DNA of 64,000 bases, taken from assembly GCA_964471945.1 (NCBI GenBank), contig CAYYIJ010000002.1, forward strand, positions 10,481 to 74,480, written 5' to 3'. This DNA comes from an uncultured Chlorobiaceae bacterium (GTDB lineage Bacteria; Bacteroidota; Ignavibacteria; UBA10030; SZUA-254). How positions within the stretch are numbered: position 1 is the first letter of the stretch; the number at the start of each line of letters is the position of its first letter. The translations under genes were made by a program, and so were the position numbers. This document shows positions 4,447 to 13,385 of this stretch, piece after piece. Below the pieces are notes generated by a model. The model was not told where the DNA came from. It did no database searches and saw only the letters and a list, made by a program, of their open reading frames with translations.

Positions 4447-5199
4447 ATGGATTTCTCAATAATAATCTTAATTTCGTTTATATTTTTTATTATCGCTTTG
4501 CTCTACTCTTCAGTGGGGCACGGCGGTGCATCTGGATATTTGGCGGTGTTATCCTTATTTACTTTTAAACCGGATGAAATGGCATCAACCGCGTTGCTCA
4601 TAAATGTAACAGTAGCCGGGATTGCGTTTTACTCTTATTATCGTTTAGGATATTTTTCTCCAAAACTTACATTACCGTTTTTGTTAACTTCAATTCCGCT
4701 CTCATTTATCGGCGGCATGCTGAATATCCCAAAATATTATTACAGTTTCTTGCTCGCCATGGCGCTTATTACCGCAGCACTTCGTTTAATGATTAAATTG
4801 GAATCTAAAACAATAGTCGAACCAACTTACAAACATACACGAATGGCAGTTGCACTACCTGTTGGTGGAGCGATTGGTTTTATCTCCGGAATTGTCGGGG
4901 TTGGTGGAGGAATATTCCTAAGTCCGATAATTCTTCTAATGAAATGGGCAAATCCAAAATTCACAGCCGCAACTTCGGCATTATTTATAGTGATGAATTC
5001 CATTTCAGGAATTGGTGGAAGGATTATAGATGACAGATTTTCAACAGGTAATTTTTTGCCTTTCATGGCTGCGGCGATAGTGGGCGGATTTGTCGGGTCG
5101 ATTTGGGGTGCGAAGAAATTTTTACATCAAACACTCAGAAGATTACTCGGAATTGTTCTATTAATTGCGGCAATAAAACTGTTGATTGCATCTCTGTAA
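4447..5199 (+). CDS. TauE/SafE family sulfite/anion exporter permease (DUF81).
   Basis: A 250-aa polytopic protein with the internally duplicated GxGGG motifs typical of TauE/SafE (GHGGASGY, GVGGGIF). Confidence 0.8.
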   Translation: MDFSIIILISFIFFIIALLYSSVGHGGASGYLAVLSLFTFKPDEMASTALLINVTVAGIAFYSYYRLGYFSPKLTLPFLLTSIPLSFIGGMLNIPKYYYSFLLAMALITAALRLMIKLESKTIVEPTYKHTRMAVALPVGGAIGFISGIVGVGGGIFLSPIILLMKWANPKFTAATSALFIVMNSISGIGGRIIDDRFSTGNFLPFMAAAIVGGFVGSIWGAKKFLHQTLRRLLGIVLLIAAIKLLIASL

Positions 5200-5410
5200 T
5201 TCAGTGCGCTTAGTGTTGACTTAATTCACAGCCGAGGCGAGGAGGAAACAAAGATAACTTCGAGAATTTTTAAATATTTTATCATGTTGCAAGTGAAGAA
5301 CATTTTTTTTACCTTTTTAAACAGAAATTTAATTAGACTTAGCACGAAACAATAAATTATTAATCAATAACGACTAATAACTCAAAACTCATAATTCATA
5401 ACTAAAATAT

Positions 5411-5775
5411 TAGCGTAGCTTCGGCTGCTGTCTTGGCTTGAAAACGTGGAAATTTTTATGCATGCAAGATGGAGCCAGCATACGCCCCGAAAGGGGCGTG
5501 GCTGGTGTATCCTTTGTGTGCGGGCATCCACGTGCCTCAAGTCAGAGGGTAATCGGTTTCACGCCCTTTGTATTTCTGTGGCACCCGTGTAGTAGACGGT
5601 CACCGACCGTCGTTCGTAGAATACCTTGTTCGCCGATCTGTTGATCGGCTACTACAGCCCGCCGCAAAGATTCAGCCAAACGTGGTAGCCGCACCCTTTA
5701 CGGGTGCGTGTCTCAGGAAACACAGAAATCCCGCTTTAAGTAGATAAACCCACGGCTCAAAAGTCTGCGGTTACT
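5411..5775. ncRNA. Candidate structured non-coding RNA; GC-rich, ORF-free element of unknown class.
   Basis: GC content is well above the flanks. Multiple perfect hairpins are visible: ACGCCCC-GAAA-GGGGCGT nested in CCAGC/GCTGG, GACGGTC/GACCGTC, GCCGATC-tgtt-GATCGGC, GCACCC-tttac-GGGTGC. A long-range pairing ATTTCTGTGGCACCCG / CGGGTGC...CACAGAAAT is also present. The only ORF here (5438..5644) has a junk-like product. Confidence 0.3.
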
Positions 5776-5793
5776 AAGAAAATTTGAAACACT

Positions 5794-5832
5794 TGATATT
5801 CTTAAAAATGTGTGGTATATTATATACCACAG
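5794..5832 (+). promoter_or_regulatory. Sigma-70-like promoter (TTGATA, 17-bp spacer, TATATT) overlapped by a perfect palindrome TGTGGTATAT|ATATACCACA; candidate operator for the downstream HTH repressor.
   Basis: Read directly from the sequence, 20-50 nt upstream of the HTH start codon. Confidence 0.4.
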
Positions 5833-5849: not shown

Positions 5850-6212
5850 ATGACTTTTGGTGAATTTGTTAGAAAAAAACGTATTGAAGCCGAGCTTGGT
5901 CTTAGAGAGTTCTGTATAAAGGCAGAGGTAGACTCAAGTAACTGGAGCAAAATTGAACGTGGAATACTTCCTGCACCTTCGAACCGGGAGTTCCTTGAAT
6001 CGCTGGCTAAGTTGTTAAAATTGAAGAAAGGTGAAACAGATTGGTACATATTTTTTGATCTTGCTTCCCTTTCTCAACAAAAGATTCCGGACGATGTTTA
6101 TGAAGATAAAAATGTATTAGCCGCTCTTCCAGTATTTTTTAGAACAGTCCGGGGCGAAAAACCGACTGAAGAAGAATTAGATAATCTGATAACTCTTTTA
6201 AAGCAGAGGTAA
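5850..6212 (+). CDS. XRE-family helix-turn-helix transcriptional regulator (CapH/ImmR-like).
   Basis: N-terminal HTH_3-like segment (TFGEFVRKKRIEAELGLREFCIKAEVDSSNWSKIERG); 6 nt upstream of the peptidase gene. Confidence 0.75.
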   Translation: MTFGEFVRKKRIEAELGLREFCIKAEVDSSNWSKIERGILPAPSNREFLESLAKLLKLKKGETDWYIFFDLASLSQQKIPDDVYEDKNVLAALPVFFRTVRGEKPTEEELDNLITLLKQR

Positions 6213-6217
6213 AAAAA

Positions 6218-6829
6218 TTGGGAGCCGACATATCGGGATTACAAATACCGTTCCTTTGGGATGATGAGATACGGAAGAAGGCAGACGAATTCAGGAAAAA
6301 ATATTGGGGTGATAAAATTCCTATCGATGTTGAACTGATTGCCGAGAGAGATTTAAAAATTTTGATTATTCCGATTCCTGATCTCCGTTACAAAGCTCAT
6401 ACAGAAGCATATCTTTCAGGTGATCTAAAAGAAATTTCGTACGACCCCGCTGCTCCTGACATCAGAATTCGTTTTTCGATAGCACACGAAATCGGTCATT
6501 TCGCTCTTCATGCAAACATAATTCGACAACTCAGACCAAGTTCAATAGATGAATGGAAAGAAATTCAACGAGCTTTGCCCGATGTTTTTTGGGGACGCGC
6601 AGAATATCAGGCGCGGGAATTTGCTGGAAGACTGTTGGTTCCCCCTGAGTTGTTGATTCAGGCGTTGAGAGAATTACAACCCTTGATTGAAAAAGCAAAA
6701 GCCATTGCGCCGAATTTGGAAATACCTGTTATTAAAGAACTCGTTTCGCCGAAACTTGCAAAGAAGTTTTTCATATCAGATGAAGTAATAGTGCGACGGA
6801 TGGATGCTGAGGGAATTCAGATAAAGTGA
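6218..6829 (+). CDS. ImmA/IrrE-family zinc metallopeptidase (M78, DUF955; CapP-like).
   Basis: HExxH motif in IAHEIGHFALH plus a downstream Glu; the typical partner of an XRE HTH. Confidence 0.75.
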   Translation: MGADISGLQIPFLWDDEIRKKADEFRKKYWGDKIPIDVELIAERDLKILIIPIPDLRYKAHTEAYLSGDLKEISYDPAAPDIRIRFSIAHEIGHFALHANIIRQLRPSSIDEWKEIQRALPDVFWGRAEYQAREFAGRLLVPPELLIQALRELQPLIEKAKAIAPNLEIPVIKELVSPKLAKKFFISDEVIVRRMDAEGIQIK

Positions 6830-6838
6830 AATGACCAG

Positions 6839-8050
6839 ATGTCAGAGATGAAAGAAAGAAATATGATATTTATCAGCCACGCTTGGGAAGACTTTGAATT
6901 TACAAAGTGGCTTGCATTACAATTAGCCAAAGAAGGTTTTGGCGTTTGGTGTGATTTGACAAAATTACTTGGGGGAGAAAATTGGCCAAGAGAAATAAAT
7001 GAAGCATTGCAAAGAAGAACATGTAAATTTCTATTTGTTCTTTCGAGATCATCAAATACAAAACCCGATCCTCTTGGCGAACTTGAAACTGCAAGAAAGA
7101 TAATGAGGCGAGAAAATATCAGCAATTTCATTGTACCTCTTAAGATAGATAGTATCGTTCGGGATCAAGTTGATTATAGACTTCAAGAAATTCAAAGCCT
7201 CTCATTTGAATCCGGTTGGGCAAAAGGTCTGTCGGATTTGTTAAAGATGTTAAATGAACAAGGAATTCCCAAGAATCTTTCATTCAATCCTCAAGCTGTC
7301 AACGAATGGTGGAAAAGATACGGTACGGAGTCAAGAAAGATTCTTGAAACGCCAGAAAACCTTTCTTCAAATAGATTTTCGATACATCACTACCCTACAA
7401 CAATTTTTGCTCACTTTGTGGATGAGAAACCTCGGATAATATCTAGAATTATTGAATCAATTCCCCTTTCAACATTAGATATTATACATGGCGAAGATGA
7501 GCTTATAGAAAACTCAAAGACAGGTCTCTATTACTTAACAAGACTTTCAAATCAGACATTTGAAAAAGGGATGGTTAATAAAGGACTTCGAAGTTTCACC
7601 CTCGCAAAATCAAAAGGTTGCTGCTACTATTTCCACGAAGAATTACTTAATAATGGAAGGATAAAATACAGAAATAGTGGTGAGCTGGATCCGAGAATAA
7701 AATTGTGGGGAAAATTTGGGACTGAGAAATGGTACTGGGCTTTGCGAGTACGATTTATGATGGAGCCACAACTTCATTATTTGGTACAATCTCATGTATT
7801 GGTTCAAAATAAAAAAGGGTTCAGTCCTGCACCAAAAGGAGTTTACAAATCGTGGAGGAATGACAAATGGAGAGATAAGTTAAAGGCATCAATGGTACAC
7901 CTAGCAGAAGACAATTCAGATATAAGATTTGGACTCGGAGCAAATAATAATCTAACAATTTCAAAGGAATCCACTTTATACACCTGCCCAGTAAGTTACG
8001 AAGAACCAGCAGAACAATCGGAAATAGAGGACGCAGATACTGATGGCTGA
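6839..8050 (+). CDS. TIR-APAZ protein of a short-pAgo (SPARTA-type) system.
   Basis: N-terminal TIR-like domain (MIFISHAWEDFEF...GFGVWCD...FLFVLSRSS...GELE) followed by a roughly 260-aa APAZ-like region. An 8-nt overlap (ATGGCTGA) with the downstream Argonaute gene indicates translational coupling. Confidence 0.7.
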   Translation: MSEMKERNMIFISHAWEDFEFTKWLALQLAKEGFGVWCDLTKLLGGENWPREINEALQRRTCKFLFVLSRSSNTKPDPLGELETARKIMRRENISNFIVPLKIDSIVRDQVDYRLQEIQSLSFESGWAKGLSDLLKMLNEQGIPKNLSFNPQAVNEWWKRYGTESRKILETPENLSSNRFSIHHYPTTIFAHFVDEKPRIISRIIESIPLSTLDIIHGEDELIENSKTGLYYLTRLSNQTFEKGMVNKGLRSFTLAKSKGCCYYFHEELLNNGRIKYRNSGELDPRIKLWGKFGTEKWYWALRVRFMMEPQLHYLVQSHVLVQNKKGFSPAPKGVYKSWRNDKWRDKLKASMVHLAEDNSDIRFGLGANNNLTISKESTLYTCPVSYEEPAEQSEIEDADTDG

Positions 8051-9578
8051 GCTAATCAAACTCGAAGAACCTGAATTAATATTTGGACACAACCAGGCTT
8101 TGGAAGATCCAAGAGATGGTTTATCATTATTTGGCCCGCTTAAAGAAAATTCTCCCTTTGGAATCAATTATGGTCTAATTGGAACTGAAGCAGGTATCAA
8201 TAGATTCTACAGATGGCTAAAAACCACTAAGAGTTTGCTTGCTCATAATGAAGTTTCTAAAAGAATACTTTGGATACCATTCCCAGGTTTTGAAGAAATA
8301 TTCAGAATTCCATTTGCTGACGAAGCAATCACAACAAAAATCGTCGATGCCGAAATACTTAAACAAATATTAAAAGACGATGATGCTTTTCAAAGAGTTT
8401 ACAAAGCAGTTGACCTTTTTGAAGAACCAATTAGAGAGTTTTACAAGAGAGCTGATGAAGGAATCAACATTTGGTTTGCAATATCACCAGAATCAGTATT
8501 TAAAGAATGCAGACCTAAGTCTACTATAGATGATCCACTGAAAATAGTGAGCAGGGATGCAATAAAGAAAAGAAAGGAAATAGCGAAGCTAACAAGAGGT
8601 GGACAAGAATTTATTTTTAACGGACAAGAACAGGACTACTTCGCATATAATTTCGATAATGATTTTCGTCGCCAGCTTAAAGCTCGTTTGATTCTTAATA
8701 ATATTAAAGATCCTGTACAGATTATTAGAGAATCTACATTGACACAACAAGACTTCTTAGATAAATGGGGAAATCCTGAACGAGATCTTGAACCTGATTC
8801 TCAAGTCGCATGGAATTTGCTCTCAGCAATTTTTTACAAAGCAGGTGGAAAACCCTGGAAACTTAAGGGAATCAGAGAAGGTGTTTGTTATCTTGGTATG
8901 GTATTTAAAAAATTAGAGGGCGAAACGGATAAACGATCAGCATGTTGTGCGGCTCAAATGTTTCTCGATTCGGGAGATGGGGTGGTGTTTAAAGGAGCTG
9001 TAGGTCCCTGGAAATCACCCGAAGGCGAGGATTATCATCTTGATTACAATGCTGCAAAAGAAATAATTCATAGAGCTGTTGCTGCTTATAAAGATTTATT
9101 TGGAAACAACACTAATCCAAAAGAAATATTCCTACATGGTAGAACTTATTTGAACGAGGAAGAATGGCGAGGTTTTTCAAATATCGCACAGAGTGGAATC
9201 AAGATCGTTGGGATTAGAATCAGGCAAGGCAATTTCAAATTATTCCGTTCAGGGAGATTTCCAGTTCTGCGTGAAATGGCATTAATTGAAAATTATAAGA
9301 AAGGATATTTGTGGAGTACGGGTTTTATACCTAAACTAAAAACCTATCCTTATCAAGGTATTCCCTACCCGTTAGAGATTGATATTTGCAAGGGTGATTC
9401 TGATTTGTTAACAATAATGAAAGATATTTTGGCCCTTACTAAATTGAATTATAATAGTTGTCACTTTGCAGATGCTGTGCCAATCACCTTACAGTTTGCT
9501 CAAAAGATCGGAGATATATTAACGGCAGGTCCAATTGAAAAGGATACTGCCCCATTACCTTTCAAGTTTTATATCTAA
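8043..9578 (+). CDS. Short prokaryotic Argonaute (MID-PIWI, catalytically inactive).
   Basis: PIWI signature YKAGGKPWKL. No Asp at the RNase H catalytic positions. Length of 511 aa matches MID+PIWI-only pAgos. Confidence 0.75.
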   Translation: MAELIKLEEPELIFGHNQALEDPRDGLSLFGPLKENSPFGINYGLIGTEAGINRFYRWLKTTKSLLAHNEVSKRILWIPFPGFEEIFRIPFADEAITTKIVDAEILKQILKDDDAFQRVYKAVDLFEEPIREFYKRADEGINIWFAISPESVFKECRPKSTIDDPLKIVSRDAIKKRKEIAKLTRGGQEFIFNGQEQDYFAYNFDNDFRRQLKARLILNNIKDPVQIIRESTLTQQDFLDKWGNPERDLEPDSQVAWNLLSAIFYKAGGKPWKLKGIREGVCYLGMVFKKLEGETDKRSACCAAQMFLDSGDGVVFKGAVGPWKSPEGEDYHLDYNAAKEIIHRAVAAYKDLFGNNTNPKEIFLHGRTYLNEEEWRGFSNIAQSGIKIVGIRIRQGNFKLFRSGRFPVLREMALIENYKKGYLWSTGFIPKLKTYPYQGIPYPLEIDICKGDSDLLTIMKDILALTKLNYNSCHFADAVPITLQFAQKIGDILTAGPIEKDTAPLPFKFYI

Positions 9579-9809
9579 TCATTTAGTAAACAAAAATTGT
9601 TCTATTTATATCTTCAAAGAATATGTAAGTTTTTCCTTGAGAATTGGTATACCAAAGGATTCTAAAAACAAATCAATCTTGAAACAAGATACTATCTTCA
9701 ATTTTCATTTTTGAAAATCAACGTCTAAAATCTTTCCAGTTTTTCATCTTTTCAACCAAAATCTAACATTTATCTCTGGCATAATAATTGATATTTATAA
9801 ATACCAATT

Positions 9810-10271
9810 ATGAGAGAAGAAACTGCAGAAAACGTAGCAAACGAAGAAATTCCACTCTATACCATCAGCACAGCAGCGAAGTTGTTGGGTATTTCTGTTC
9901 ACACTTTGAGGATGTATGAGCGTGCCGGACTTATATTGCCATTCCAAAAAGAATCAAGTCATCGTCTTTACTCTCAATCGGATATCGAAAGGTTGCGTTG
10001 TATTCGAAAGGCAATTAACGAAGATAAAATCGGAATAGCAGGCATTCAACGTATCCATGCTTTAATACCTTGCTGGGAAATTCTTCCTTGCACCCAAAAA
10101 GATCGGGAACATTGCAATGCTTTTAAAAGTCACCAAGTGGGATGCTGGACATATAATCACAAAAATAATGTATGTGAAAAAAAGGATTGTAGGTTGTGCA
10201 AAGTGTATAAAAAAGCTATGGATTGCAATAGCATAAAGAATAGTATCATCACAGCAACAAATAAAAATTAG
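9810..10271 (+). CDS. MerR-family transcriptional regulator with a Cys-rich C-terminal sensor tail.
   Basis: MerR HTH (YTISTAAKLLGISVHTLRMYERAGLI). The last ~70 aa contain 9 Cys (PCWEILPC...HCNAF...GCW...VCEKKDCRLCK...DC). Confidence 0.7.
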   Translation: MREETAENVANEEIPLYTISTAAKLLGISVHTLRMYERAGLILPFQKESSHRLYSQSDIERLRCIRKAINEDKIGIAGIQRIHALIPCWEILPCTQKDREHCNAFKSHQVGCWTYNHKNNVCEKKDCRLCKVYKKAMDCNSIKNSIITATNKN

Positions 10272-13050: not shown

Positions 13051-13119
13051 TAGGCAACAGATTTTTTTTCTGGTATATTTCTAAAAATATATTTACATTG
13101 AGCAAAGAAAATTATTCTT

Positions 13120-13290
13120 TGGTTTCGTCTCCGAGTTTCACAACCTAAGTCTTAGAGATATGGTTGTGTAACCGATGAGTCTGCGGACTCTTCCCAATAA
13201 TAAGAGATTGGGAAAACGGTGATGGCGGAAACGGCATCGCCACCCGGCTTGTCCCGAATTTGTTTTGGGACTTGGAAAGGAGAGATAAAT
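13120..13290 (+). promoter_or_regulatory. Structured 5' leader of moaA; candidate Moco (molybdenum cofactor) riboswitch.
   Basis: A GC-rich patch with four clean hairpins (CACAACC/GGTTGTG, TCCCAAT/ATTGGGA, GTCCC/GGGAC, GGTGATGGCG/GCCATCGCC-like), directly upstream of the Moco biosynthesis operon. The Moco motif itself could not be verified by eye. Confidence 0.35.
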
Positions 13291-13385
13291 AATTTTATCA
13301 TTTATTCATTCCAAGAAGAGATGGGGATTTTTATTTTAATGCAAAAGTTAAAATTAAAAATGAAAAAATATTTATTTATGAAAAA

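What the first reader, a model, noticed from the sequence alone, without database searches (positions are those of the whole stretch)
6839..9578. SPARTA-type defense operon: TIR-APAZ plus a catalytically dead short Argonaute
Two translationally coupled genes share an 8-nt overlap (ATGGCTGA). The first encodes an N-terminal TIR-like domain (FISHAWEDFEF...GVWCD...FVLSRSS...GELE) fused to a ~260-aa APAZ-like region. The second encodes a 511-aa MID-PIWI protein carrying the PIWI hallmark YKAGGKPWKL but no acidic residues at the RNase H catalytic positions. This architecture is that of short pAgo/TIR-APAZ (SPARTA) systems. On guide-dependent recognition of invading DNA these trigger TIR NADase activity and abortive infection. 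No annotation-free ORF caller would name it, and it is the clearest immune system in the window. The host is a low-GC FCB-group bacterium, a lineage where few SPARTA systems have been characterised.
Basis: partly seen in the sequence, partly recalled or inferred. Interest (0 to 1): 0.85.

Follow-up and report, generated by a model that had tools for sequence, protein, structure and literature searches.

The report
SPARTA Argonaute defence with added regulator
This is a real SPARTA anti-plasmid/anti-phage system (a dead short Argonaute plus a TIR NAD-destroying partner), a well-known kind, but here it is wired behind a portable repressor/protease switch and its partner protein has a unique 30-residue internal deletion.

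Summary
Two + strand ORFs, 6839-8050 (403 aa) and 8043-9578 (511 aa), overlap by ATGGCTGA. The first is a TIR-APAZ (PADLOC 3.5e-80) and the second a short pAgo (PADLOC 4.7e-179). The pAgo aligns end to end with the CrtSPARTA and MapSPARTA Argonautes (about 50% identity, E about 1e-130). The TIR catalytic Glu (E81), the MID 5'-phosphate pocket, the sensor-loop Trp, the C-terminal Ile and the acidic TIR-APAZ tail are all present. Three of the four DEDX positions are non-acidic. So this is a SPARTA, from a divergent Bacteroidota/Ignavibacteriota subclade.

1. The pair is the 3' half of a four-gene operon. An XRE-type HTH gene (5850-6212) and a short M78 peptidase gene (6218-6829) sit 9 nt upstream, behind a promoter overlapped by a perfect palindrome (5811-5831). 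This HTH/M78/operator cassette recurs in 81 metagenome loci in front of RM, CBASS, DISARM and Avs-like cargo. None of 16 other SPARTA loci has it.
2. The TIR-APAZ lacks 30 residues (a hairpin plus helix of APAZ-N) that all 91 aligned relatives and all library representatives retain.

The claim that few SPARTA systems from this lineage are characterised is wrong. Interest is moderate.

The parts
5793..5821 (+). Sigma-70-like promoter: -35 TTGATA (5793-5798), 17-nt spacer, TG-extended -10 TATATT (5816-5821).
   Evidence: One search gives the best-scoring site in the region (10 of 12 matches). The -35 box TTGAYA and the spacing are conserved in cassette homologs, and homology among them starts exactly at the -35 box.
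5811..5831 (.). Candidate operator: a perfect palindrome, TGTGGTATAT-T-ATATACCACA (TGTGGTA-N7-TACCACA), overlapping the -10 box and the likely transcription start.
   Evidence: It is the only match in the 64-kb window, with 0.06 expected by chance. The motif is present within 130 nt upstream of the HTH gene in 36 of 62 non-redundant cassettes and in 0 of 62 control regions. Six cassettes have the symmetric variant TGTTGTA...TACAACA.
5850..6212 (+). XRE-family HTH repressor gene (120 aa). The HTH is at residues 3-63. The conserved LPVFF-RT motif is at 93-99 (candidate cleavage site F97/R98), followed by a C-terminal helix.
   Evidence: Pfam HTH_31, E=8e-7. An HTH gene lies directly upstream of the M78 gene on the same strand in 75 of 81 cassette loci. 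The FFRT motif is at least 90% conserved across 73 non-redundant homologs.
6218..6829 (+). ImmA/IrrE-type M78 zinc metallopeptidase gene (203 aa; HEIGH at residues 90-94). It has no GAF domain and no cysteine switch.
   Evidence: Pfam Peptidase_M78, 3e-12 over residues 49-195. PADLOC capP, 6e-15, covering only profile positions 3-136 of 242. The family alignment has H90, E91, H94 and H98 invariant and no conserved Cys.
6839..8050 (+). TIR-APAZ gene (403 aa). It starts 9 nt after the M78 stop codon.
6863..7255 (+). TIR NADase domain (about residues 9-139). The catalytic Glu E81 is encoded at nt 7079-7081.
   Evidence: Pfam TIR_2 covers residues 10-134. E81 aligns with Crt/Map E77, whose E77A mutant is the published catalytic-dead control (PMC10474274, PMC9097488). 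E81 is invariant in 92 sequences.
7334..8008 (+). APAZ domain (about residues 166-390; N-, L1- and L2-like regions), truncated in its N-like part.
   Evidence: PADLOC PNTD1-PNTD2. The second aligned stretch covers residues 205-395 against Crt 236-424. The model matches APAZ-only chains such as 8oze_E at TM 0.71 and rmsd 3.5.
7433..7438 (+). Junction of a unique in-frame 30-codon deletion, between R199 and I200. In relatives the missing segment (P0122 residues 200-229) is a beta-hairpin plus a short helix of APAZ-N.
   Evidence: Alignments A1 and A2: the 91 other sequences have 29-59 residues there, including a Phe that is at least 90% conserved. The P0122 model shows E208-211, E214-217 and H221-225 at pLDDT about 95. 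No truncated representative was found in the 1.84-billion-protein library.
8000..8047 (+). [quoted passage not shown] This is the candidate autoinhibitory tail.
   Evidence: The region has low pLDDT, so it is predicted to be disordered. The role of the tail in Bab/MapSPARTA is described in PMC10899771.
8043..8050 (+). The 8-nt overlap ATGGCTGA between the TIR-APAZ stop codon and the pAgo start codon (translational coupling).
   Evidence: Overlaps of 4-8 nt also occur in the relatives L003, L005, L009 and L094.
8043..9578 (+). Short pAgo gene (511 aa): MID at about residues 1-272 and an inactive PIWI at about 273-511.
- 5'-phosphate pocket: R209, K213, Q226 and K266.
- Sensor-loop residue W323.
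- C-terminal sequence K508-F-Y-I511.
- Residues at the DEDX positions: K289, Y331(?), R367 and Q487.
   Evidence: PADLOC pAgo_I, 4.7e-179. Matches to 8ifk_B at 5.8e-133 and 8fex_B at 1.8e-127, both full length. Family-invariant residues are listed.

Best explanation
The two genes are a genuine SPARTA module. It has been captured as cargo of a portable repressor/protease regulatory cassette, giving one four-gene operon: promoter/operator, HTH, M78, TIR-APAZ, pAgo.

Proposed mechanism:
1. A dimer of the XRE-type HTH protein binds the palindrome TGTGGTA-N7-TACCACA, which overlaps the -10 box. This keeps the whole operon, including its own gene, at a low level. This step is inferred from the conserved operator.
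2. On a stress signal the M78 peptidase cuts the repressor. The likely site is the conserved FF/RT, between the HTH and the C-terminal dimerisation helix. Cleavage derepresses the operon. This is inferred by analogy with ImmR/ImmA, DdrO/IrrE and CapH/CapP. The signal may be DNA damage or ssDNA, but that is unknown, because this family lacks CapP's GAF domain and cysteine switch.
3. TIR-APAZ and the catalytically dead short pAgo are made by coupled translation and form a heterodimer. The heterodimer loads 5'-phosphorylated small RNA guides.
4. Pairing with complementary invader ssDNA displaces the acidic tail, the complex tetramerises, and the TIR domains hydrolyse NAD(P)+. The cell stops growing or dies. 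This is established for Map, Crt and BabSPARTA and is inferred here from conservation of the key residues.

The TIR-APAZ also lacks a 30-residue hairpin-plus-helix of APAZ-N. That subdomain lines the guide-distal end of the duplex channel. Whether this copy is still active is open; I put it at about 55%.
For: SPARTA identity:
- Profile and PDB hits.
- The ORF1 model matches SPARTA TIR-APAZ chains.
- E81 is invariant.
- The MID pocket, W323 and the C-terminal residues are invariant in 58 pAgos.
- The DEDX positions map to K289, R367 and Q487.
- The C-terminal tail is acidic.

Operon structure:
- The intergenic gaps are 5 nt and 9 nt and the last two genes overlap by 8 nt, all on the + strand.
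- No terminator-like site on the + strand lies between the genes.

Cassette:
- The M78 family is tight, at about 204 aa.
- HTH and M78 are adjacent in 75 of 81 loci.
- The operator occurs in 36 of 62 cassettes against 0 of 62 controls, and six cassettes have a symmetric half-site variant.
- Homology starts at the -35 box and ends in the last 4-5 codons of the M78 gene, after which the cargo is unrelated.
- In 28 of 52 loci with enough downstream sequence, a co-directional ORF of at least 150 aa starts within about 300 nt of the M78 stop.
- The identified cargo is mostly defence genes: CBASS HNH-SAVED plus CD-NTase, type IIG/III-like RM, DISARM DrmA (7e-194), an Avs-like STAND NTPase, HNH nucleases and PDC-M41A.
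- The FFRT motif is at least 90% conserved, and CapH is cut at F82/R83 (PMC13228613).

No sign of decay outside the deletion:
- Identity to outgroup SPARTA is 0.345, against 0.343 +/- 0.011 for 41 sister sequences.
Against: - The SPARTA-plus-cassette combination is seen only in this organism. The window and two Logan assemblies, L001 and L002, carry the identical sequence. None of 16 other SPARTA loci has the cassette, and none of 83 other cassette loci carries SPARTA. There is therefore no comparative support for a functional coupling.
- Promoter scanning uses an E. coli-type consensus. An internal Bacteroidota-type promoter inside the M78 gene cannot be excluded.
- The peptidase lacks the ssDNA-sensing GAF domain of CapP, so the inducing signal is a guess.
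- The deleted segment contains a Phe conserved in at least 90% of relatives. It also corresponds to the Crt region that holds the duplex-contacting residues Arg201 and Lys211 (PMC11156904). The complex may therefore be impaired.
- AlphaFold's confidence in the truncated domain does not show that the domain is stable.
Confidence: 0.72

Rival explanations
1. This is an inactivated SPARTA remnant. The 30-residue in-frame deletion removes two strands and a helix of the small APAZ-N sheet. The heterodimer then cannot hold the guide/target duplex, or it misfolds, and the locus no longer protects the cell. This rival is compatible with the operon reading. It concerns activity only.
For: - The deletion is unique among 92 aligned TIR-APAZ proteins. 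The others keep 29-59 residues there, including a nearly invariant Phe.
- It is also unique among library representatives.
- In the full-length relative the segment is a confidently folded element.
- The equivalent Crt region holds the duplex contacts R201 and K211.
Against: - The reading frame is intact and every family-invariant residue outside the gap is kept.
- There is no excess divergence relative to sister sequences in either gene.
- The truncated protein still models as a SPARTA-like APAZ.
- Most APAZ-pAgo contacts are with PIWI. Deleting another duplex-contacting APAZ helix had little effect in MapSPARTA (PMC10474274).
- The same sequence appears in independent assemblies, so it is not an assembly artefact.
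Confidence: 0.4
2. This is an ordinary stand-alone two-gene SPARTA that merely lies next to an unrelated XRE/M78 pair. That pair could be a toxin-antitoxin-like or mobile-element immunity module. SPARTA would be expressed from its own promoter and would not be controlled by the HTH protein.
For: - Published surveys found no gene other than the APAZ partner specifically associated with short pAgos (PMC9097488).
- None of 16 other SPARTA loci has the pair.
- Bacteroidota-type promoters are not covered by the scan.
Against: - Only 9 nt separate the M78 stop codon from the TIR-APAZ start codon, with no terminator between them.
- In the cassette family, unrelated cargo is joined directly at the 3' end of the M78 gene, on the same strand, in 28 of 52 loci, and that cargo is mostly defence genes. 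This is the pattern of a regulator with cargo, not of a chance neighbour.
- No integrase or phage genes lie nearby.
Confidence: 0.15
3. This is not SPARTA but a different Argonaute or TIR system, such as SPARSA, SPARDA or a Thoeris-like TIR gene next to a long pAgo fragment.
For: Pfam's Piwi model does not hit ORF2.
Against: - ORF2 aligns over its full length to SPARTA Argonautes at about 50% identity. SPARSA, SPARDA and SPARHA Argonautes score far lower.
- ORF1 has a TIR domain, not a SIR2 or nuclease domain, fused to APAZ.
Confidence: 0.02

Closest known systems
SPARTA (short pAgo/TIR-APAZ, clade S2A): MapSPARTA, CrtSPARTA and BabSPARTA
   Same: - Two overlapping genes in the order TIR-APAZ then pAgo.
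- pAgo of 511 aa (507 in the solved systems), about 50% identical over its full length.
- TIR catalytic Glu present.
- MID 5'-phosphate pocket of the (H/R)-K-Q-K type.
- PIWI without DEDX.
- Sensor-loop Trp and C-terminal Ile present.
- Acidic C-terminal tail on TIR-APAZ.
- Host in the FCB group.
   Different: - TIR-APAZ is only about 33% identical to the characterised ones.
- It lacks 30 residues of APAZ-N. At 403 aa it compares with about 420-430 aa in its own subclade and 450-480 aa in mainstream SPARTA.
- The whole subclade carries substitutions at residues that matter functionally in MapSPARTA: TIR F45/W46 become W49/P50, TIR Y105 becomes Arg, and MID H207 becomes R209.
- The acidic tail is short, about 13-16 aa.
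- The genes are preceded in the same operon by a repressor/protease pair.
CapH/CapP (CBASS-associated HTH repressor and ssDNA-activated M78 peptidase; Lau et al. 2022, Calloji et al. 2026)
   Same: - An adjacent XRE-type HTH gene and M78 (HExxH) peptidase gene next to defence operons (CBASS, DISARM and others).
- A conserved DNA site in the promoter.
- A conserved Phe-Arg dipeptide in the repressor between the HTH and the C-terminal helix, as at CapH F82/R83.
   Different: - The peptidase is 203 aa with no GAF domain and no cysteine-switch loop. It matches only positions 3-136 of the 242-position capP profile.
- The pair is co-directional and co-transcribed with its cargo. All reported CapH/CapP-like modules are instead divergently oriented and share a promoter region with their cargo.
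- Here the operator overlaps the -10 box. The CapH site lies upstream of the -35 box.
ImmR/ImmA of ICEBs1, and phage-like XRE/ImmA pairs (from my own knowledge of Bose and Grossman's work; also cited)
   Same: - A small ImmA-type peptidase without a GAF domain.
- The repressor and anti-repressor protease genes lie in one operon with downstream genes (immR-immA-int).
- Repression is relieved by cleavage of the repressor.
   Different: - The cargo here is a defence system, not integration or excision functions.
- No integrase or mobile-element genes lie nearby.
- The activating signal is unknown.

Membership tests
SPARTA (short pAgo + TIR-APAZ) | The Argonaute consists of MID and PIWI domains only. 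| tested here: met
   The 511-aa protein aligns over residues 1-511 to the 507-aa CrtAgo and MapAgo. PADLOC pAgo_I covers profile positions 3-493 of 493.
SPARTA (short pAgo + TIR-APAZ) | The PIWI domain lacks the DEDX catalytic tetrad. | tested here: met
   hhalign of the family profile against TtAgo maps D478 to K289 (invariant in the family), D546 to R367 and D660 to Q487. E512 maps to Y331 in a loop, which is uncertain. The alignment is weak (E=0.0021) but spans the whole PIWI domain.
SPARTA (short pAgo + TIR-APAZ) | The MID residues that bind the guide 5'-phosphate are present. | tested here: met
   Crt H207 and K211 correspond to window R209 and K213. K213, Q226 and K266 are invariant in 58 homologs. 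Arg replaces His across the whole subclade.
SPARTA (short pAgo + TIR-APAZ) | The partner protein has an N-terminal TIR domain with the catalytic Glu. | tested here: met
   Pfam TIR_2, 3e-19. E81 aligns to E77 and is invariant in 92 sequences.
SPARTA (short pAgo + TIR-APAZ) | A complete APAZ domain (N-, L1- and L2-like regions) follows the TIR domain. | tested here: inconclusive
   APAZ is detected. However, APAZ-N lacks 30 residues, a hairpin plus a helix, that all relatives keep.
SPARTA (short pAgo + TIR-APAZ) | The two genes lie together in one operon. | tested here: met
   They overlap by 8 nt at 8043-8050.
SPARTA (short pAgo + TIR-APAZ) | The proteins form a heterodimer and show guide-RNA and target-ssDNA-dependent tetramerisation and NAD(P)ase activity. 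| not testable with these tools
   This needs biochemistry or an in vivo NAD assay.
CapH/CapP regulator module | An XRE-type HTH gene lies next to an M78 (HExxH) peptidase gene beside a defence operon. | tested here: met
   Pfam HTH_31 and Peptidase_M78 hits. PADLOC capP, 6e-15. The genes are 5 nt apart.
CapH/CapP regulator module | The peptidase carries a C-terminal GAF domain that forms the ssDNA-binding groove. | tested here: not met
   The protein is 203 aa and M78 covers residues 49-195. Only capP profile positions 3-136 of 242 are matched. The whole family is about 204 aa.
CapH/CapP regulator module | A cysteine-switch loop is present (found in about a third of CapPs). | tested here: not met
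   The 31-sequence family alignment has no conserved Cys.
CapH/CapP regulator module | The module is divergently oriented from its cargo and shares the promoter region. | tested here: not met
   It is co-directional here and in 28 of 52 cassette loci. Lau et al. report that all CapH/CapP-like modules lie on the opposite strand.
CapH/CapP regulator module | The repressor binds a conserved promoter site and is cleaved by the peptidase on ssDNA or DNA damage. | not testable with these tools
   There is only indirect support: the conserved palindrome and the conserved FFRT motif.

The most novel reading that the evidence does not exclude
This would be the first Argonaute defence system placed under a dedicated inducible switch. 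SPARTA would be kept silent by a self-cleavable-type XRE repressor and switched on by a minimal, GAF-less ImmA-like protease. That protease belongs to a Bacteroidota/Ignavibacteriota cassette family that carries its defence cargo co-directionally, a layout distinct from CapH/CapP. In addition, the naturally truncated TIR-APAZ would still work, which would show that half of the APAZ-N sheet is dispensable and would define a smaller SPARTA.
Probability: 0.25. Interest if true: 0.6.

Novelty: new variant of a known kind. Interest (0 to 1): 0.4.

Why it matters
SPARTA kills or arrests its own host, yet how native hosts control its expression is essentially unstudied. Published surveys describe short pAgo systems as stand-alone. 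This locus gives a concrete, testable case of an Argonaute abortive-infection module wired to a repressor/protease switch.

It also exposes a compact, portable promoter/operator/HTH/M78 cassette. That cassette drives RM, CBASS, DISARM and Avs-like cargo in Bacteroidota and Ignavibacteriota. It differs from CapH/CapP in domain content and in gene orientation.

The natural 30-residue APAZ-N deletion is a ready-made structure-function probe for what the N-like lobe contributes to duplex sensing. That is relevant to SPARTA-based nucleic-acid detection tools.

If the deletion simply inactivates the system, the locus is an ordinary decaying SPARTA and matters little.

Tried and rejected
- Pfam's Piwi model and NCBIfam gave no hit for ORF2. 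These libraries are insensitive to short pAgos, so this is not evidence against the assignment.
The match was not significant (probability 0.2) and I discarded it. I then fetched TtAgo from plasmid pTT27 and used that instead.
- The SPARTA structure papers state that DEDX is absent but do not name the replacing residues.
- The M78 protein has no sequence match in the PDB at E<=0.01.
- Rfam found nothing for the GC-rich element at 5400-5790, either at gathering thresholds or at E<=1. The only hit was a junk match (ACAT, E=0.59). ARAGORN found no tRNA or tmRNA.
- The genome-contig scan with a single protein returned only 3 loci, so the wider SPARTA sample came from other tools.
- I looked for insertion boundaries. 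The only bracketing repeat is a 12-nt exact match, which is about chance level.
- I considered a prophage or ICE immunity module and rejected it, because no integrase or phage genes lie near the locus.
- I considered an assembly artefact for the deletion and rejected it, because two separate Logan assemblies and the NCBI record carry the same 403-aa gene.
- Cluster look-up gave no names or accessions. The organism is therefore inferred only from its nearest homologs and from a T9SS sorting-domain protein.
Full report
**1. Observation**

The window has two + strand ORFs, at 6839-8050 (403 aa) and 8043-9578 (511 aa). They overlap by ATGGCTGA at 8043-8050.

**2. Identity of the two genes**

ORF1 evidence:
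- ORF1 has a Pfam TIR_2 domain at residues 10-134 (E=3e-19).
- It matches the PADLOC TIR-APAZ model Aga_TIR-PNTD1-PNTD2 at 3.5e-80.
- Its best PDB matches by sequence are TIR-APAZ chains of CrtSPARTA, MapSPARTA and BabSPARTA, at E=1e-41 to 1e-33.
- An AlphaFold model built on 92 sequences has mean pLDDT 88.8. Its 35 best structural matches are all SPARTA TIR-APAZ chains (E about 1e-30).
- APAZ-only chains superpose on the model at TM about 0.7 and rmsd 3.5-4.0. The whole-chain TM of about 0.47 reflects the free orientation of the TIR and APAZ domains in an isolated chain.

ORF2 evidence:
- ORF2 has no Pfam or NCBIfam hit.
- It matches PADLOC pAgo_I over the whole profile at 4.7e-179.
- It aligns over residues 1-511 with the 507-aa CrtAgo (5.8e-133) and MapAgo (1.8e-127) at about 50% identity. 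SPARHA, SPARDA and SPARSA Argonautes score far lower.

**3. Functional residues**

Numbering and roles come from PMC10474274, PMC11156904 and PMC10899771.

TIR-APAZ:
- The TIR catalytic Glu E77 corresponds to window E81 (nt 7079-7081). It is invariant in 92 homologs.
- The C-terminus is EEPAEQSEIEDADTDG, 50% Asp/Glu. This fits the autoinhibitory tail, although it is short.

pAgo MID domain:
- Crt H207 and K211 correspond to window R209 and K213.
- K213, Q226 and K266 are invariant in 58 pAgos.

pAgo PIWI domain and C-terminus:
- The sensor-loop Trp (W323), the NYN motif and the C-terminal K-x-Y-I are conserved.
- I fetched TtAgo from plasmid pTT27 to check the catalytic tetrad.
- A profile alignment (E=0.0021, 235 columns) puts TtAgo D478 on K289 (invariant in the family), D546 on R367 and D660 on Q487. 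E512 falls on Y331 in a loop with acidic neighbours.
- The nuclease is therefore dead at three or more of the four positions. The alignment is weak but internally consistent.

Subclade-wide differences from MapSPARTA:
- The NAD-pocket pair F45/W46 is W49/P50 here.
- Y105 is Arg here.

**4. Where it sits in the family**

- The pAgo search found 4306 homologs at E<=1e-20. The exact protein is already in NCBI, unnamed.
- About 40 sequences at 56-80% identity form a subclade. Their contigs carry Bacteroidota, Ignavibacteriaceae and Ignavibacteriota titles. Mainstream SPARTA pAgos are about 46-50% identical.
- The window encodes a T9SS sorting-domain protein. This supports an FCB-group host.
Crenotalea (now Thermoflavifilum) thermophilum and Maribacter polysiphoniae are both FCB-group Bacteroidota.

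**5. First addition: a unique deletion in APAZ-N**

- Every full-length relative is 418-480 aa. Only the window protein is 403 aa.
- Alignments show a single gap between R199 and I200. There, all 91 other sequences have 29-59 residues (median 35) with the consensus g....lpyp.......llsFA.a.dl...lg. The Phe is at least 90% conserved.
- In the closest full-length relative modelled (P0122, pLDDT 89.2), the missing 30 residues (200-229) form two short strands and a helix at pLDDT about 95.
- In CrtSPARTA this corresponds to part of APAZ-N (residues 167-280). APAZ-N is a four-stranded sheet near the guide's 3' end. The stretch contains the duplex contacts Arg201 and Lys211.
- An exhaustive search of 1.84 billion representatives found 212 clusters at E<=1e-30. 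Almost all full-length hits align in two stretches broken at query residues 195-205. No other truncated representative was found.
- The same gene occurs in two separate Logan assemblies, so it is not an assembly error.
- Outside the gap there is no sign of decay. Identity to 50 outgroup proteins is 0.345, against 0.343 +/- 0.011 for 41 sister sequences. For the pAgo the values are 0.475 against 0.472 +/- 0.010.
- The deletion is therefore either recent or tolerated. Sequence alone cannot decide which.

**6. Second addition: the pair is the back half of a four-gene operon**

- A 120-aa HTH_31 protein gene (5850-6212) and a 203-aa Peptidase_M78 gene (6218-6829, HEIGH motif) lie on the same strand. 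The gaps are 5 nt and 9 nt.
- PADLOC scores the peptidase as capP (6e-15), but only over profile positions 3-136 of 242.
- The best promoter-like site in the region is TTGATA-17-TATATT with a TG extension, at 5793-5821. It is overlapped by a perfect palindrome, TGTGGTATAT-T-ATATACCACA, at 5811-5831.
- That palindrome is the only match in the 64 kb, with 0.06 expected by chance.

**7. The HTH/M78 pair is a portable cassette**

- The peptidase belongs to a tight family of proteins about 204 aa long. A metagenome scan found 431 relatives, of which 80 loci were fetched.
- Among 81 non-redundant loci, the HTH gene lies directly upstream on the same strand in 75.
- The motif xGT(G/T)GTA-N7-inverted occurs within 130 nt upstream of the HTH gene in 36 of 62 cassettes. 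It occurs in 0 of 62 control regions.
- Six cassettes carry TGTTGTA...TACAACA, a matched change in both arms, as expected for a site bound by a dimer.
- DNA homology between cassettes begins exactly at the -35 box and stops within the last 4-5 codons of the M78 gene. The downstream sequence is unrelated.
- In 28 of 52 loci with at least 1 kb of downstream sequence, a co-directional ORF of at least 150 aa starts within about 300 nt.

Cargo that could be identified:

| Locus | Cargo |
|---|---|
| L046 | HNH-SAVED plus DncV-like CD-NTase (CBASS) |
| L077, L084 | N6_Mtase/Eco57I type IIG enzymes |
| L014 | Methylase plus ResIII helicase |
| L049 | DrmA (DISARM), E=7e-194 |
| L011 | PD-(D/E)xK domain plus Avs1b-like STAND NTPase |
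| L036 | HNH nuclease |
| L079 | PDC-M41A (candidate defence gene) |

Some cargo is unknown or not defence-related: an 816-aa protein with no family hit (L010), DUF4159 with DUF4175 (L012), T2SSF (L037) and a phospholipase C (L032).

In the repressors, LP-x-FFRT (window L93-T99) is at least 90% conserved across 73 sequences and is followed by a conserved helix. CapH is cut at F82/R83.

**8. Is the SPARTA-cassette link general?**

No.
- None of 83 other cassette loci carries a TIR-APAZ or pAgo gene.
- Profile searches find no HTH or M78 of this family within 5 kb in 16 other SPARTA loci from genomes, metagenomes and viral contigs.
- Koopal et al. 2022 reported that no gene other than the APAZ partner specifically associates with short pAgos.
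- The CapH/CapP papers do not mention Argonautes.
- Full-text searches found no paper linking Argonautes with XRE/M78 regulators or describing dedicated SPARTA regulators.
- The combination is therefore a single capture event, seen in one organism.

**9. Mechanism (best estimate)**

Shown by sequence:
- The gene order, gaps and overlap.
- All the domain assignments.
- The conserved operator and its position over the -10 box.
- The cargo-swapping behaviour of the cassette.

Inferred:
- The HTH dimer represses the operon.
- The M78 peptidase cuts the repressor at FF/RT on some stress signal, and this derepresses SPARTA.
- SPARTA then acts as published. It loads RNA guides, recognises invader ssDNA, displaces its acidic tail, tetramerises and depletes NAD(P)+.

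The signal is unknown, because this family lacks CapP's GAF domain and cysteine switch. In its small peptidase and co-directional layout the module resembles ImmR/ImmA more than CapH/CapP. That comparison rests on my own knowledge of ICEBs1 and.

**10. Verdict**

This is a SPARTA system, which is a known kind with thousands of homologs.

It is a new variant in two respects: the repressor/protease cassette in the same operon, and the truncated APAZ-N. Neither is shown to be functional, and both are seen in a single lineage. Interest is moderate, at 0.4.

Noticed in passing
window 5400-5790 (+): A GC-rich intergenic element (50-55% GC, against about 38% around it) lies between the TauE-like gene and the cassette promoter. 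It folds with MFE -151 kcal/mol (z=-6.2 on the + strand, -4.6 on the - strand) and has several UUCG/GAAA-type capped hairpins. It has no Rfam family, tRNA or tmRNA match and no copy elsewhere. Both Logan contigs start at its 5' edge (window 5404). It is a candidate unknown structured RNA.
   Followed up: partly
window 5151-5162 and 9595-9606: A 12-nt exact direct repeat, AATTGTTCTATT (72% identity over 32 nt), brackets the whole block: the GC-rich element, the cassette and SPARTA. One copy lies inside the 3' end of the TauE gene and the other 17 nt after the pAgo stop codon. It could be an insertion footprint, but statistically it is about chance level.
   Followed up: no
loci L010-L092 (for example L046:2480-4877, L049:8730-14856, L077:3504-6575, L011:1200-5660): A widespread cassette consisting of promoter/operator, an HTH gene (about 120 aa) and a GAF-less M78 gene (about 204 aa). 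The metagenome scan found 431 relatives. It carries varied co-directional cargo: CBASS, DISARM DrmA, type IIG RM, an Avs-like STAND NTPase, HNH nucleases and several proteins with no known family (such as the 816-aa ORF in L010). Its layout differs from published CapH/CapP. The unknown cargo may include new defence genes.
   Followed up: partly
loci L055, L064, L076, L086, L039, L059 (upstream of their HTH genes): An operator variant, TGTTGTA-N7-TACAACA, replaces TGTGGTA-N7-TACCACA. The change is matched in both half-sites. This suggests co-evolving repressor/operator specificity groups within the cassette family.
   Followed up: no
window 6839-8050 and 8043-9578; relatives L003-L009: The whole subclade differs from MapSPARTA and CrtSPARTA at residues reported to matter functionally. 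The TIR pair F45/W46 is W49/P50 here (an invariant GGENWP motif), TIR Y105 is Arg, and the MID residue H207 is Arg (FRRQLKA). The NAD pocket or guide 5'-end preference may be altered.
   Followed up: partly
L094:1-10124: In this relative the SPARTA pair is inserted inside a type I RM operon, between hsdM and hsdS/hsdR. In L004 a 1016-aa methylase-like gene starts 9 nt after the pAgo gene. SPARTA in this subclade is often embedded among RM genes, unlike in the window.
   Followed up: no
window 13117-13298 (+): A Moco/tungsten riboswitch (Rfam RF01055, 61 bits) lies upstream of a MoaA-like radical-SAM gene. It follows a sulfur-metabolism cluster comprising an SQR-like gene, DsrC and a DsrE-like gene. 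A MerR-family regulator with a Cys-rich C-terminus (9810-10271) heads that cluster.
   Followed up: no
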